This document shows positions 437 to 55,761 of a stretch of 64,000 bases of DNA, piece after piece (the first letter of the stretch is position 1; the number at the start of each line of letters is the position of its first letter). Under the pieces are notes generated by a model. The model was not told where the DNA came from, did no database searches, and was given only the letters and a program-made list of their open reading frames with translations. This DNA is from the human T2T-CHM13v2.0 reference genome, Homo sapiens. The position numbers were made by a program, and so were the translations under genes. The stretch is from the NCBI RefSeq assembly GCF_009914755.1, contig NC_060947.1. One strand, written 5' to 3'.

Positions 437-767
437 TTTTTTGTTTGTTTGTTTGTTTGTTTTTTGAGACAAGGTCTCACTCTGTTGCCCAGGCTGGAAT
501 GCAATGATGTGAACATGGCTTACTGCAGCCTCAATCTCCTGGGCTTAAAGAATTCTCTCACCTCACCCTCCTGAGTAGCTGTGACACCCAGGTACTGAGC
601 AAAGGTGTGCTGCCATGCTTGGCTAATTTTGTCTGTGTGTGTGTGTGTGTGGAGAAACGGGTCTTGCCATGTTGCCCAGGTTGATCTCAAACTCCTGGCC
701 TCAAGTGATCTCCTGCCTTGGCCTCCCAAAGTGCTTGGATTACAGGCATGAGCCACCATGCCTGGCC
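437..767 (-). mobile_element. AluJ with (TG)n linker and a short internal insert
   Basis: T/GTTT tail, dimeric Alu body with J-type ctgcagcctcaatctcctgggct, degenerate TSD tgcagc(g/a)tt. Confidence 0.9.
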
Positions 768-789
768 TGCAGCATTCTATTTTATAAGA

Positions 790-1010
790 ATCATCAATGC
801 TACCATTTATTAGATGCTTCCTATGTATATGCATCAAGCATTTTTCTAAGCATTTTCTGTGTCTAACCTCACTGAACTCTCCCATCAACCCTATGAAGTA
901 CATAATATATTTACTCCTATGGCTGGAGGAAGCAACTGAGGCTCAGAGAGGTCAAATCACTTGCTCAAGTCCACACAGCTGAGAAGCTTTAGAGTCACTA
1001 CAGAGCTGTG
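790..1010 (-). mobile_element. MIR relic
   Basis: gcaactgaggctcagagaggtcaaatcacttgctcaagtccacacagct is the MIR core. Confidence 0.7.
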
Positions 1011-1619
1011 CTCTCTTCTCTCCTTAAGAAGAAACTTGGAGGTAATAAGCTACACGGCCCCTGAGATCTGAAGGACTACAGTATGATGAGGAAGAAGATT
1101 CACCCATAGTCATGGTACCCCAGTGCACTTTATATCTTTTTTACTCAAATGTGGTTCCAATAGCTTGTGTCAACTGGGCTCCAGTGATTGCTAAGCAGAT
1201 GCTTTTGGCATCAGCTGTTTATCTGGCCTCCCAAGTTATAGCACTGTAGTTTCTTCTTGAGTGGCTCCACCAGCCCAGTCAATCAAATAACCTATCAGCC
1301 TATCAGTTCACTCAGCTGAATTGTTTTTTTCACTCTATTGATCTGTTTGGCTGCACAGAATACATTGACAGGGTGCCCCAGGGTTATGTAAACACACCCC
1401 TCCTCCTACTGAGGGCTCTCTCTGTAAGCCTCAAACCTCAAAAGCCCCAAAGTCAAAGATCTGTTTCCACCATGTGCCCACTACACATTCAGACCAAAGA
1501 AAATGAATGAATGGAAGCCAGGTATCAAACATTCTCTCACTCACCGTTTAAAATTACTTAGAACTGCTCTGGCTATACTATTATGAATGTACTTTGGAGG
1601 TAACTTTTTTATGATTTGG

Positions 1620-1760
1620 GTTTTTTTGTTTGTTTGTTTTAACTTTTAGTTTAGATTCAGGCGTTACATGTACAGGTTTGTTACCTGGGTATATTGTGTA
1701 ATTGCTGAGGTTTGGGGTAAGAATGATCCCATCACCCAGGTACTGAGCAAAATATCCACA
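1620..1760 (-). mobile_element. L1PA (older primate L1) 3'-end fragment
   Basis: tacatgtacaggtttgttacctgggtatattg...gatcccatcacccaggtactgagca matches the L1PA 3' UTR in reverse. Confidence 0.8.
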
Positions 1761-1762
1761 GG

Positions 1763-2064
1763 TTTTTTTATTATTATTTTTTTGAGACAGAGTCTTGCTG
1801 TGTCACCCAGGCTGGAGTGCAGTGGCACAATCTTGGCTCACTGTAACCTCTGCCTCCCAGGTTCAAGCAATCCTCCTGCCTCAGCCTCCTGAATAGCTGG
1901 GACTACAGGAGCACATCACTGTGCCCAGCTAATTTTCGTATTTTTGGTGGAAACAGGGTTTCACCATATTGGCCAGGCTGTCTCCAACTTCTGACCTCAA
2001 AGGATCTGCCTGCCTTAGCCTCCCGAAGTGCTGGGATTACAGGCGTGAGCCACCGCGCCCAGCC
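1763..2064 (-). mobile_element. AluS
   Basis: Full dimeric Alu with T-tail at left. Confidence 0.92.
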
Positions 2065-51850: not shown

Positions 51851-52003
51851 TCTTTCCCCCATCACCTACCAACCACGAATCTGCTTTCTGTTTCTATGGA
51901 TTTGCCTATTCTGATATTTCATATAAATGGAATCATACAATAATATGGCCTTTTGTGTCTGGCTTCTATCAAATGAGTGTAATGTCTCCATGGTTTATCC
52001 ATG
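51851..52003 (-). repeat. L1M segment copied from 49345-49493
   Basis: About 90% identity including private variants. Confidence 0.85.
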
Positions 52004-52292
52004 GAAGGCTGTGAGTATTTCAAAGCCACCCTCTGCATTCTTCTTACCATTCTTTGACTGTGCTGATAGGGGCTGAAGGAATGTGGAATCCTCCCTGTGA
52101 CAGATTCCTGTGTGGCCCTACTCCCAGAGCTGCTTAGGCAGATCTGGCTGGCTGCACAGGAGCCACAGCCGACGTGCTCAAAGCCCTTCCGTACAAGAAG
52201 CTGTGATCCTTTAGTGAAATTTACATGTACTTTTCTTCACTTACTGGACTTCCTAATAGTATAGAGAACAAAGGCCTTGAAGTCACAGAGAC

Positions 52293-52589
52293 CTTTTTTT
52301 TTATGAAACAGAGTTTCACTGTGTCCCTCAGGCTGGAGTGCAGTGGTATAGTCTTGGCTCACTTCAGCCTCAAGCTCCCCAGGCTCAGGTAATTCTCCCA
52401 CCTCAGCCTCCCAAGTAGCTTGGACTACAGGTGTGCACCACTATGCCTGGCTAACTTTTGTAATTTTTTGGTAGGGACAGGGTTTTGCCATGTTGCCCAG
52501 GCTGGTCTCAAACTCCAGGGCTCAAGCAATCCGCCCACCTTGGCCTCCCAAAGTGCTTGGATTACAGGCATGCACTACCGCACCCAGCC
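52293..52589 (-). mobile_element. AluJ inside a plus-strand MIR (~52255-52790)
   Basis: J-type body; MIR continues tagctgtatgaccttgaacaac. Confidence 0.9.
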
Positions 52590-54410
52590 TCAGACAGAAC
52601 TTTAATCAAAGCAGCTCTGTGACTTCTTAGCTGTATGACCTTGAACAACTTAATGTTTAAGTCTCAGTTTTCTCATCTGTAACATTGGGATAGTATCCTC
52701 CACCTCACAGGATACATGTGAGGATGATATGAGATGATGCTGGTAGCATAGGGCCTGGCATGTGGCACTTACCATTGACAGATATTATTTTAAAGAAATT
52801 CTCAAAGCTTAATAATATTTATTGCACATGTTCAGGGAAAGGTTTGGGTCAAGGGTGAGGCACACTTCTGAGAATCTTCTCCAAGTTTCCCCTCTGCTCA
52901 GCAGAGACTGATTGCCTATGGATCTGCAAATCACATCTAACTTGTTTCTGTTCTCCTTATGAAAGCTCGTTAACTATGAATATTTTCCATCCAACCTACC
53001 GAATTCCTACTGCCACCTGGATACCATTTTCCTCTTTTTAATTCTTGCTGCCCTTGATGGCACCATAACTGAGTCTGGCCTAGGGTATGCTCTAAGTACC
53101 TACCATATGCTTTCAATAAAAAGAGAATGACTGTGCTCTGACTGCACTGAAAGTGGCAATCACACATGGACTGGTAAATTTAATGGGAGTGTTTTCTAAG
53201 AAACTTTCATTTGGACTTCCAGTGCCCATCACATAAAATGCAATGATCAGGTTGGAACAGCAGTGTAGCTTTCAAATAAGCAAAGGTCCATTCACCAAAT
53301 AGGCCTTAACTGAGACATCTTCAGAGGTGCCCAGCCAGATGGTCACTATTAAAGTCAATAGGCTTTCCATGGCAAGTGGAGCTCTGGGCTCTGACAATTA
53401 CTTTCAACCATTCCCCTCACATTAGGCTACTGATGCAGCCCCAATCCATGGAGCAAGGGCAACAGAGCAGTTAAAGTCCCTGAAAGGGACAAGACATGCA
53501 ACGATTTTTGGAGCCAATTACCCCCTATTTCATCACTGGGGAGTGAAGCACTACTACACTTCTTATTTTCTTCAGCCTACTTTAAGTAACTGAGAGCTTA
53601 ATGTAAACCCAAAGTGCTAAAATCATATAAAGGAAAGGAAAATTTAGGGTGAAGGCGAAGAGGTGGATTTGTAAACACACTGCATTATGTTCTTTGAGCC
53701 AGAAAACTTCAGTAGTCCCCGATTAGCCTGCCTGCTTGTCCTTAGCAAGAGGATTCTGGGAAGGTAAAAGCACCCTGACTGAAGCGGGGTATTGGGCTCA
53801 ATTCAAAGGAATAAAAGTAACTCCAATTTCAAGAAGTCCATAGCCCACAGGTGCTAAAAAGACACAAAGATTCAATTAATCTGCCATATCCTTTCTCCTT
53901 GATTGTAGTGGGTACTTGGTTGATGGAGAGAGCTACGAAGTTGATGGGAAGATGCGAAGCTCAAAGCTAAGTCATAGGGTTGGAAGCTGCAATGCCAAGC
54001 CCTTTATATATTCCAAGTCAGATGAAAGCTCAAGCCTTCAGACTGCCGAACTGCAGACTGATTAGCTTACCACCCTGTAAAAAGCGCTTGCCAAGAACAC
54101 CATCACTATTGGAATTCTGGGCTTTCCCCTGTCTGAAACTTGACAGGGAGAATGGAATTCCATTTAATGCCTAACTTGTAAACGTAAAGCTGTCACTTTA
54201 AGACTCTGAGTGCGAACAGAGGTTTGGACCTAATTCCTTCTCTCTAGTGATGGCAGTGGAGTGTGTGTATGCACATGTGTGTGCATTAGGAGAAGGAGGA
54301 GATGGAGAACAAGAGGAAAGTTCTCATTTGTTCCTCTGAAAGAAGAGCTGATCTGAGTATTGATCTAGTTGACCATCTAGAAACAGTGACAAGAAAGGGA
54401 GTCAAGTTGA

Positions 54411-54709
54411 GGCCGGGTGCGGTGGCTTATGCCTGTAATCCCAGCACTTTGGGAGGCTGAGGCAGGTGGATCACCTGAGGTCAGGAGTTCAAGACCAGCC
54501 TGGCCAACATGGTGAAAGCCAGTCTCTACTAAAAAAATACAAAATTAGCTGGGCATAATAGTGCATGCCTGTAATCCCAGCTACTCAAGAGACTGAGGCA
54601 GGAGAATCGCTTGAACCTGGGAGGTGGAGGTTGCAGTGAGCCCAGATCGCGCCTCTGCACTCCAGCCTGGGCAACAGAATGAGACTTTGTCTCAAAAAAA
54701 AAAAAAAAA
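54411..54709 (+). mobile_element. AluS
   Basis: TSD agtcaagttga. Confidence 0.95.
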
Positions 54710-55727
54710 GGAAGTCAAGTTGAAAGAAGGAGGTAGGGCGGGGGGCGGGAGTGTCCCATTCCCAATGGGGCACCTGCTTTTCCCTTCAATACACCCCATT
54801 CCTCCCCAATGCTGGATGCTCTCAGGAGACTGCCTGGATACATGCAAGGAAGGAAGCAAAAGGGGCCCCTACTGCATATTGTTGTTTGGAACCTCAGAAG
54901 GATGCAGCATTATCGTAGAAGTCCAGGATTTTAGCGACTTGAAAGGGAATGCAGATCTTCAGATTGAGATTCTCATCCAATACCCATTCCACCAACCAGG
55001 AAACTGAGGTCCCAAGAGGAACAGGGACCTCCTGGGGTCACTCAGCAGAATAGCCAGCAGGGATCCTTTTTTTCCTGTTCACAAGTCAACGCTTGTCTCA
55101 CCAAGCTATGCCGCCTCTTTGTAGTTTATGATTTTTAGCATGTTACTTTTCTTTACATTTTTGAAAGTGCAGTCACTTGTGTATTACTCATTCAGGCTTC
55201 ACAGCACACTGATGTATTCCAGTATTGTCCTATTTGTGCTATTTTACAAAAAAAGTCCCCTGAAGCATGTCAAAACATATAGTTAGTTATTTTAAAGGGA
55301 AAAAAGGCTCAGTAAAACTCTACAGAATACATCTTTTGAGTTTGCATAATAAAAAGTTGATTCTGTTAAAATCAAATCATTTAAAAGTCAAGTGTTTGGC
55401 TTTAGGCTGATCTCAAGTTCAAGGTGGAAAAGACTCCAGATCTGATGGAGCTACCAACATCCTGCTACAATGTCCCAAGCTCTCACACTTCCAAAGCACC
55501 CAGGGGACAGAGTTACATACCTTCACAGTAGCACTTATCTCAGGGTTTTATAATGATCTGTTTACTTCTTTTCTTCCCTAGCTGACTGTGATGGCCTCAA
55601 GGGTGAGAATTCCCTCATGTCTATGTCCCCAGAACCTTGCAAGGAGGCCTGACCCAGGGTAATTGCTCAGTAAATGTTTGCTAAATAAGTTATTAGAATA
55701 GCATTATTCCACTTTACAAAGTTCTAC

Positions 55728-55761
55728 CTATGTTGCCCAGGCTGGTGTTGAACTCCTGGGC
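55728..55761 (-). mobile_element. Isolated 34-bp internal Alu fragment
   Basis: ctatgttgcccaggctggtgttgaactcctgggc with no tail or TSD. Confidence 0.75.

What the first reader, a model, noticed from the sequence alone, without database searches (positions are those of the whole stretch)
585..55761. Recurrent copy-from-nearby insertions: a fossil record of templated repair in one locus
Seen: at least four separate places where sequence interrupting a repeat or unique DNA copies another site 0.8-2.5 kb away. They are 585-603 from 1733-1751, 5542-5563 from 4018-4039, 24139-24311 inverted from 25079-25250, and 51851-52003 from 49345-49493; the orphan Alu piece at 55728 may be a fifth. Three sit inside AluJ elements, where the consensus shows which copy is the insert. 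None has a poly(A) tail or TSD. Established: polymerase theta end joining and replication template switching (FoSTeS/MMBIR) create locally templated insertions. Inference: old Alus work as passive recorders of germline templated repair. Either this locus is a hotspot, or the class is common and hidden by repeat masking.
Basis: partly seen in the sequence, partly recalled or inferred. Interest (0 to 1): 0.8.

Follow-up and report, generated by a model that had tools for sequence, protein, structure and literature searches.

The report
Old local copy-paste repair scars
Four short stretches in this human X-chromosome intron really are copies of DNA lying 1-2.5 kb away, pasted in long ago during faulty DNA repair, but this kind of scar was catalogued genome-wide in 2009 and a hotspot here is not shown.

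Summary
All four listed copy pairs are real and far beyond chance: 19/19, 20/22, 161/174 (inverted) and 140/153. Whole-genome searches show the nearby site is the only other match (p2, p3), the best of the 40 scored out of 1844 candidates (p4), or one of 10 exact copies (p1). A profile of the window's own Alus shows that three of them interrupt old Alus.

Two details are wrong. The p3 insert does have a 9-nt target duplication. The "fifth" Alu piece at 55728 has no local donor. I found one more old local pair, 44587-44805 and 47216-47421.

The "repeats as passive recorders" idea is already published. Pace et al. 2009 (PMC2671141) report 824 proximal repair-mediated duplications, mean 162 bp, with donor distance peaking near 1.2 kb. 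None of the events here is in their table.

The two short inserts (14-21 nt, donors 1.1-1.5 kb away) fall below the size or distance limits of the three surveys I saw.

The hotspot is not established. Counts are 3 of 29 Alus here against 0 of 71 elsewhere (p=0.02, post hoc). The one comparison free of selection, adjacent 80 kb against random 200 kb, gives 2 against 1 (p=0.2).

The parts
585..603 (+). p1 acceptor. A 19-nt stretch identical to 1733-1751. The net insertion into the Alu is 14 nt, with about 3 nt of Alu replaced.
449..769 (-). Host Alu of p1. It has the lowest profile score of the full-length Alus in the window (228.9).
1733..1751 (+). p1 donor, inside a high-copy interspersed repeat (recalled as an L1 3' region). 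The local pair shares a variant found at only 10 exact sites genome-wide.
5542..5563 (+). p2 acceptor. About 21 nt foreign to the Alu replaces 3 nt. It matches the donor at 20/22.
5293..5610 (-). Host Alu of p2 (profile score 246.7).
4018..4039 (+). p2 donor. It is the only other site in the genome within 2 mismatches.
24139..24311 (+). p3 acceptor. A 173-nt inverted copy that splits an Alu.
23907..24380 (-). Host Alu of p3, split into profile positions 64-299 and 6-72. The two pieces overlap by 9 profile positions.
24129..24137 (+). Left copy of the 9-nt target duplication CAAGTGATC. It is preceded by an extra GTGATC that stands in place of about 10 nt of Alu.
24314..24322 (+). Right copy of the 9-nt target duplication CAAGTGATC.
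25079..25250 (-). p3 donor. It is the only other genomic match, at 93%.
51851..52003 (+). p4 acceptor. A 153-nt L1-type fragment with no tail, sitting in genome-unique DNA and flanked by GAAG on both sides.
49345..49493 (+). p4 donor, embedded in a longer L1-type element (about 49160-49610) that continues on both sides.
Identity is 82% over the 123-nt core and 75% over 219 columns. Direction of copying is unknown.
47216..47421 (+). p5, second member. It is the only other genomic match of the core.
55723..55761 (-). Orphan 39-nt Alu piece (profile positions 74-112). No local donor can be identified, so it is not counted as an event.

Best explanation
These are fixed scars of error-prone repair of old germline DNA breaks.

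Proposed steps:
1. [quoted passage not shown]
2. It copied 14-190 nt and then let go.
3. It was joined to the other end, leaving small deletions, 1-2 nt of filler, 0-2 nt of junction microhomology and, in p3, a 9-nt target duplication.

[quoted passage not shown] 2009, an SDSA-like abortive synthesis followed by end joining. p1 and p2 are very short versions of it.

Shown: the copy relation, the direction of copying for p1-p4, that the donor is local, the absence of a tail, and the junction anatomy.

Inferred: that a break started it, the enzymes involved, and the age. Copy-donor divergence of about 6-8% for p3 and p4 suggests roughly 25-40 million years at the rate used by Pace et al.

My confidence that p1-p4 are locally templated copies at all is about 0.95. 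The figure below is for this particular pathway.
For: Copies verified. Local donor unique or best in the genome. Shuffle controls 0/100.

p4 copy and donor share 12 non-majority bases, against 8 and 7 private ones, where about 0.8 shared are expected by chance. They are 91.9% identical, against at most 84-85% to 21 other family copies. Both flanks of the p4 acceptor are unique in the genome, while the donor sits inside a longer element.

The Alu profile shows the inserts are foreign to the Alu, with about 3-nt deletions (p1, p2) and a 9-nt duplication plus a replaced patch (p3). No insert ends in an A or T run.

Lengths and distances fit the published class: proximal events mean 162 bp, median 147 bp, distance peak near 1.2 kb. 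All 39 inspected proximal junctions lacked poly(A) and showed microhomology, deletion, filler or a 4-21-nt TSD.

In 100 Alu loci, the only complex local matches scoring 16 or more were p1-p3. Every non-local hit scoring 17 or more was low-complexity sequence or an unmasked Alu piece.
Against: - No orthologous empty site was seen, so the junctions are reconstructed from an Alu profile only.
- Donors 1.1-1.5 kb away are unusual for 14-21-nt templated inserts. The one detection tool I read about searches only within 100 bp.
- The 7-nt word shared by the p3 target and its donor flank is not significant (238 of 2000 shuffles). p1, p2 and p4 show nothing beyond chance there.
- The p1 19-mer has 8 other exact copies elsewhere, so a distant donor is only made improbable (about 7e-6), not excluded.
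- The inverted orientation of p3 fits a replicative switch equally well.
Confidence: 0.55

Rival explanations
1. Replicative template switching (FoSTeS/MMBIR-like). A nascent strand at a stalled or collapsed fork jumped to a nearby template, copied it, and returned. No two-ended break was involved.
For: p3 is inverted and lies under 1 kb from its donor. Its junction is complex, with three copies of GATCACTT and a replaced patch, which suggests repeated re-priming. Germline templated insertions attributed to an MMBIR-like process, some copied from several templates, are reported in normal human genomes (PMC8421209, passages seen).
Against: p1, p2, p4 and p5 are direct, simple, single-template copies. 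Junction microhomology is 0-2 nt, and donor-flank homology is not above chance. The published proximal class was assigned to SDSA-type break repair. Sequence alone cannot separate the two pathways.
Confidence: 0.3
2. This part of the HS6ST2 intron is a true regional hotspot for templated repair.
For: Alu-hosted events: 3 of 29 Alu loci in the window, against 0 of 71 elsewhere (20 adjacent, 51 random), Fisher 0.023. All verified events: 7 in the 144-kb locus, against 1 in a random 200 kb, p=0.011. The published catalogue gives about 0.27 per Mb and a deficit on X, 29 observed against 53 expected.
Against: The window was flagged because of these events, so tests that include it are post hoc. The adjacent 80 kb, which is free of that selection, has 2 events against 1 in 200 kb (p=0.20), and 0 of its 20 Alus are hit. 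The random sample is only 5 windows. The 2009 catalogue is conservative and misses p3 itself. If the per-Alu rate were about 1%, which the 0/71 allows (upper bound 4%), many windows genome-wide would carry 3 by chance.
Confidence: 0.2
3. Independent insertions of the same repeat families, or chance similarity.
For: The p1 and p4 donors lie in high-copy repeats (274 near-matches; 1844 candidates). Two background pairs that looked local turned out to be ordinary family copies.
Against: p2 and p3 have no other match in the genome. p4 shares 12 derived bases with its donor. The p1 pair shares a rare variant at 1.1 kb. Shuffles gave 0/100.
Confidence: 0.02
4. RNA-mediated insertion: reverse-transcribed intron RNA or L1-driven retroposition pasted into the break.
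For: All sites lie in one intron and so are co-transcribed. In the 2009 study, distant duplications often carried poly(A) tails (17 of 29).
Against: None of the inserts has a poly(A) or poly(T) end. p3 is inverted relative to its donor. None of the 39 inspected proximal events in the 2009 study had a tail.
Confidence: 0.03

Closest known systems
Repair-mediated duplications (RDs) by capture of proximal DNA, Pace, Sen, Batzer and Feschotte 2009 (PMC2671141)
   Same: The logic is the same: an insert seen as an interruption of a transposable element relative to its consensus. The donor is within 5 kb with a peak near 1.2 kb, mean length 162 bp, no poly(A). Junctions show deletion, filler, microhomology or a 4-21-nt TSD. 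p3 (173 nt) and p4 (153 nt) fit in every respect.
   Different: p1 and p2 (14-21 nt) are below the paper's 50-bp floor. The p4 acceptor is in unique DNA, not a TE, and its donor is TE-derived, which their filters remove. No event of this window is in their Table S1: there was no HS6ST2 entry and no chrX row at the expected coordinates. The expected hg18 position is my estimate.
Doublets, the short paired duplications of Thomas et al. 2004, PNAS
   Same: These are short local duplications that share many attributes of RDs and were attributed to imperfect break repair, as described in Pace et al.. The ~1 kb spacing, same-strand bias and copy-and-paste origin are my recall. p1, p2 and p4 are direct and 1.1-2.5 kb from their donors.
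   Different: Doublets were defined as exact matches of 25-100 bp (recalled). p1 is 19 nt, p2 is inexact, and p3 is inverted. The paper itself is not held, so I know it only through Pace et al. and recall.
Templated insertions of polymerase-theta end joining and MMBIR (MMB-TI, PMC8421209)
   Same: A short foreign stretch copied from nearby DNA, often together with a small deletion, and present as germline variants.
   Different: The tool in that paper searches for templates only within 100 bp. Here the templates lie 1.1-1.5 kb away. I recall, from no call, that polymerase-theta templates usually lie within tens of bp of the break.
Short-range template-switch mutations, Loytynoja and Goldman 2017 (PMC5453318, seen in a search listing only)
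   Same: An inverted local copy created in one event, as in p3.
   Different: By title and abstract these are short-range, in-place replacements that appear as mutation clusters. p3 is a 173-nt insertion taken from about 0.8 kb away. I did not read the paper.

Membership tests
Proximal repair-mediated duplication (Pace et al. 2009) | The insert interrupts a transposable element relative to its consensus | tested here: met
   p1-p3 aligned to a profile of the window's own Alus. Not met for p4, whose acceptor flanks are unique DNA.
Proximal repair-mediated duplication (Pace et al. 2009) | Insert of at least 50 bp | tested here: inconclusive
   Met by p3 (173 nt), p4 (153 nt) and p5 (123-219 nt). 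Not met by p1 (14-19 nt) or p2 (about 21 nt).
Proximal repair-mediated duplication (Pace et al. 2009) | One parental copy in the genome, within 5 kb and more than 50 bp away | tested here: met
   p2, p3 and p5: the local site is the only other match. p4: the local site is best among the 40 scored of 1844 candidates. p1: 10 exact copies, so the strict uniqueness rule is not met.
Proximal repair-mediated duplication (Pace et al. 2009) | No poly(A)/poly(T) tail, and junctions with microhomology, deletion, filler or TSD | tested here: met
   No tails. About 3-nt deletions at p1 and p2; a 2-nt GC overlap and 1 extra base at p2; a 9-nt TSD, a replaced patch and 1-2-nt fillers at p3; GAAG on both sides of p4. 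Reconstructed without an empty site.
Polymerase-theta / MMBIR flank-templated insertion | Template within about 100 bp of the junction | tested here: not met
   Donors lie at 1148, 1524, about 770 and about 2500 bp. The 100-bp radius is taken from PMC8421209.
Polymerase-theta / MMBIR flank-templated insertion | Microhomology between the priming end and the template | tested here: inconclusive
   0-2 nt at the junctions. The longest word shared by acceptor and donor flanks is not above shuffles: p3 238/2000, the others over 1700/2000.
L1-mediated retroposition | Poly(A) tail, 7-20-nt TSD, and a copy of a transcript in sense | tested here: not met
   No tail on any insert. p3 has a TSD but is an inverted genomic copy with no tail. 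The p4 fragment derives from the local copy, not from the family.
Doublets (Thomas et al. 2004) | Exact pair of 25-100 bp, near 1 kb apart, same strand (definition recalled) | tested here: not met
   p1 is exact but only 19 nt. p2-p4 are inexact. p3 is inverted.

The most novel reading that the evidence does not exclude
Two things remain open.

(a) Kb-range donor choice extends down to inserts of 14-21 nt. This size and distance combination falls outside the three surveys I saw: the 50-bp floor, the 25-bp exact floor (recalled), and the 100-bp search radius. In my sample, all 3 complex Alu inserts of 14 nt or more had such donors. A share of short 'TE fragments' such as p4 may likewise be local DNA-level copies mis-counted as insertions.

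(b) The 144-kb HS6ST2 stretch is a real regional hotspot, with 7 events against 1 in a random 200 kb.
Probability: 0.2. Interest if true: 0.5.

Novelty: new member of a known kind. Interest (0 to 1): 0.25.

Why it matters
The events themselves are neutral intronic scars. None overlaps the annotated enhancers or the alternative exon.

Their use is methodological.
- They show that the 2009 catalogue of proximal repair duplications is incomplete. p3 is missing from it. p4 is not TE-hosted and has a TE-derived donor, so the pipeline as described would not keep it.
- Very short inserts can share the same kb-range donor distance.

If that holds genome-wide, it would bear on two questions. One is how a broken end finds its template: by spatial proximity at about 1 kb rather than by snap-back at the break. 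The other is how many annotated repeat fragments are really local copies.

Tried and rejected
- Calling inserts from profile or pairwise alignments under-called them. hmmalign gave p1 as 11 nt and missed p2. The affine aligner split p1 into 7+7 around a chance GTA. I therefore relied on a BLAST scan of whole Alus against Alu-masked flanks. The first run missed p1 because its donor fell inside the 35-nt mask padding of the next Alu. It was recovered with 5-nt padding.
- The 7-nt word CAAGTGA shared by the p3 target and its donor flank looked like guiding microhomology. It is not significant (238/2000 shuffles).
- The orphan Alu piece as a fifth event was rejected.
- Two local-looking background pairs (bgC11 21035, bgC13 36030) were rejected as ordinary high-copy family copies.
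These are window-frame 69564-69587 with 70032-70055 (24/24), bgC11 30060, and bgC13 14786, 34263 and 35283.
- A 1.5-Mb random background was planned, but only 200 kb plus 80 kb adjacent could be obtained, so the hotspot test has little power.
- No primate genomes were on hand, so no event could be dated by orthologues.
- Protein, structure and RNA-family tools were not relevant and were not used.

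
Full report
**Observation**

The window is an intronic stretch of HS6ST2 on the human X chromosome (T2T-CHM13). I read the eight stated intervals and aligned them.
- p1: 585-603 is identical to 1733-1751 (19/19, direct).
- p2: 5542-5563 matches 4018-4039 at 20/22 (direct).
- p3: 24139-24311 matches the reverse complement of 25079-25250 at 161 of 174 columns.
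- p4: 51851-52003 matches 49345-49493 at 140 of 153 columns (direct).

Start-to-start distances are 1148, 1524, about 940 (768 end to start) and 2506 bp.

**Chance and uniqueness**

Neither the p1 19-mer nor the p2 22-mer found a second match in any of 100 dinucleotide-preserving shuffles of the window, even at 3 mismatches.

Searches of the whole 3.1-Gb assembly gave the following.
- The p2 22-mer at up to 2 mismatches occurs only at itself and the local site.
- p3 matches only itself and the local inverted site, at 93%.
- p4 belongs to a high-copy family (1844 first-look candidates, 40 scored). Its best match is the local site (92% over 150 nt, 206 bits), followed by 91% over 113 nt (154 bits) and then 86% or less.
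- The p1 19-mer has 274 matches at up to 1 mismatch, so it also lies in a repeat family. Only 10 are exact, and two of those are the local pair. The chance that one of the other exact copies lies within 1.15 kb is about 7e-6.

**p4 is a local copy, not a second insertion**

I aligned copy and donor with 21 other family copies: 20 fetched from the list and one from the window.
- Copy and donor share 12 bases that differ from the family majority.
- They have 8 and 7 private differences.
- About 0.8 shared differences are expected by chance (Poisson p about 1e-10).
- They are 91.9% identical to each other, but at most 84-85% to any family copy.
- Six of the 12 shared variants occur in 4-6 of the 21 family copies and could mark a subfamily. 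The other six occur in 0-2.

The donor continues as the same element on both sides (49160-49610 aligns to a third copy at 30235-30691). Both flanks of the acceptor have no other match in the genome. The direction of copying is therefore from 49.3 kb to 51.9 kb.

**Junctions**

I built a profile from the window's own Alus.
- p1: 14 net extra bases, with about 3 nt of Alu replaced by donor sequence. The 19-nt donor match spans the whole anomaly.
- p2: about 21 foreign bases replace 3 nt. There is a 2-nt GC overlap on one side and one unexplained base on the other.
- p3: the Alu is split into profile positions 6-72 and 64-299.
  - The 9-nt word CAAGTGATC stands on both sides of the insert (24129-24137 and 24314-24322).
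  - A further GTGATC replaces about 10 nt of Alu.
  - 1-2 filler bases sit at each junction.
- p4: flanked by GAAG on both sides.

No insert ends in an A or T run.

The 7-nt word that the p3 target shares with its donor flank is not above chance (238 of 2000 shuffles). The other three events show nothing there.

**The fifth candidate**

The 39-nt Alu piece at 55723-55761 best matches an Alu in a chromosome-4 sample (36/39). That is better than the nearest local Alus (33/38 and 30/32). A local donor cannot be claimed.

**A further event**

A scan of Alu-masked sequence for pairs within 5 kb found 44673-44795 against 47290-47411 (82%, direct). It extends to 44587-44805 against 47216-47421 at 75% over 219 columns. 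The core has no other match in the genome. Its direction is unknown and it is older than the others.

**What is known**

I read the abstract, sections 6, 7, 8, 11, 14 and 21, and Table S1 by search.
- They looked for TEs interrupted by 50 bp or more of sequence found at one other place in the genome.
- They report 1,136 events, 824 with the donor within 5 kb. Mean length is 162 bp and median 147 bp, with the donor-distance histogram peaking near 1.2 kb.
- None of 39 inspected proximal junctions had a tail. All showed microhomology, deletion, filler or a 4-21-nt TSD.
- There is a deficit on X (29 observed, 53 expected).
- Their table has 179 Alu-hosted rows over both sheets: 80 AluJ, 89 AluS, 10 AluY.
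- They credit Thomas et al. [quoted passage not shown] That paper is not held.

p3 and p4 fit this class in length, distance and junctions. Neither is in Table S1: HS6ST2 gave 0 occurrences, and there was no chrX row with coordinates beginning 1316-1318. The hg18 position is my own estimate.

Their filters remove nested-TE-like inserts and inserts with more than one other genomic match. That would explain the omission of TE-derived donors.

A later tool for germline templated insertions searches for templates only within 100 bp (PMC8421209, passages). p1 and p2 (14-21 nt, donors 1.1-1.5 kb away) therefore fall between these surveys.

I saw no survey of inserts under 25 nt with kb-range donors, but four searches cannot show that none exists.

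**Hotspot or common class**

I planned 1.5 Mb of random background but could obtain only five seeded-random 40-kb windows (200 kb) and the 40 kb on each side of the window.

Alu-hosted events:
- Of 100 Alu loci (29 in the window, 20 adjacent, 51 random), the only complex local matches scoring 16 or more were p1, p2 and p3.
- All 28 non-local hits scoring 17 or more were low-complexity sequence or unmasked Alu pieces.
- That is 3 of 29 against 0 of 71 (Fisher one-sided 0.023).

Genome-verified local pairs of 50 nt or more:
- 3 in the window (p3, p4, p5).
- 2 in the downstream 40 kb: a 166-nt pair at 87% and a 52-nt pair at 92%.
- 0 in the upstream 40 kb.
- 1 in the random 200 kb: 111 nt, 91%, 410 bp apart, on chromosome 11.
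- Two other random candidates proved to be ordinary repeat-family copies, and several weak ones were left untested.

Tests that include the window are post hoc, because the window was flagged for these events. They give p=0.011 to 0.08. The only selection-free contrast is adjacent 80 kb against random 200 kb, 2 against 1, p=0.20.

Local copying is nevertheless general in the sample. Of 7 pairs whose members have exactly one partner in the 344-kb data, 5 lie within 5 kb where 0.8 are expected (p=3e-4). The two distant ones look like repeat-family pairs.

The rate in my random sample is 1 per 200 kb. That is far above the 0.27 per Mb of the 2009 catalogue, but it rests on a single event.

**Mechanism**

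The sequence shows one-step copying of 14-190 nt from a site 0.4-4 kb away, in either orientation. Junctions are end-joining-like, and p3 has a staggered or re-primed junction.

I favour break repair with abortive synthesis on a nearby ectopic template followed by end joining (SDSA-like capture, possibly with polymerase theta). Replicative template switching is the main rival, especially for the inverted and complex p3. Sequence alone cannot separate them.

Mismatch divergence between copy and donor is about 6% for p3 and 6-8% for p4, depending on the alignment. At the rate used by Pace et al. this suggests roughly 25-40 million years. p5, at 18-25%, is much older. These dates are rough and need orthologues.

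**Verdict**

The interpretation as locally templated repair is sound, but the kind is already described. The hotspot claim is not established. What is new is small:
- specific unlisted events;
- two very short inserts with kb-range donors;
- one clear case of a repeat-like fragment that is really a local copy.

Noticed in passing
Identity is 82% over the 123-nt core and 75% over 219 columns. The core has no other match in the genome. The first member begins right at the end of the Alu at 44293-44591.
   Followed up: yes
window 2864-2892 and 3197-3225: A 29-nt inverted repeat (26/29) flanks the Alu at 2909-3191. It looks like a small palindromic MITE (recalled as MADE1, mariner-derived) split by a later Alu insertion, which is an ordinary nested insertion.
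   Followed up: partly
window 11559 (- strand), Alu at 11403-11693: The low end of the alternative HS6ST2 exon 11559-15014 falls exactly after the A-rich middle linker of a sense-oriented Alu. That transcript end may be an internal oligo-dT priming artefact rather than a true poly(A) site.
   Followed up: partly
window 24768-25038 and 49739-50044: Well-preserved Alus now lie between acceptor and donor of p3 and of p4. The first has a 20-nt pure A tail and CTCAGGGTG on both sides. If they inserted after the copy events, the original donor distances were about 0.3 kb shorter.
   Followed up: no
L047:1630-1795 with 5768-5931 of the same locus (window frame 85630-85795 and 89768-89931); L048:7457-7508 with 7881-7932: Two more genome-unique local direct pairs lie in the 40 kb downstream of the window: 166 nt at 87%, 4 kb apart, and 52 nt at 92%, 373 bp apart. 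An exact 24-mer pair at window-frame 69564-69587 and 70032-70055 was not verified genome-wide.
   Followed up: partly
L002:3754-3864 and 4274-4386 (chromosome 11 random window): A genome-unique direct local pair in a randomly chosen window: 111 nt, 91%, 410 bp apart. It shows that the class occurs outside this locus.
   Followed up: yes
window 11097-11397 and 11403-11693: Two full-length Alus lie head to tail on the same strand, 5 bp apart.
   Followed up: no
window 631-650 and 51243-51280: Microsatellites have grown inside the A-rich middle linker of two old Alus: a GT run, and ATG/ATT trinucleotide runs. They account for most other 'inserts' the profile alignment reported.
   Followed up: no
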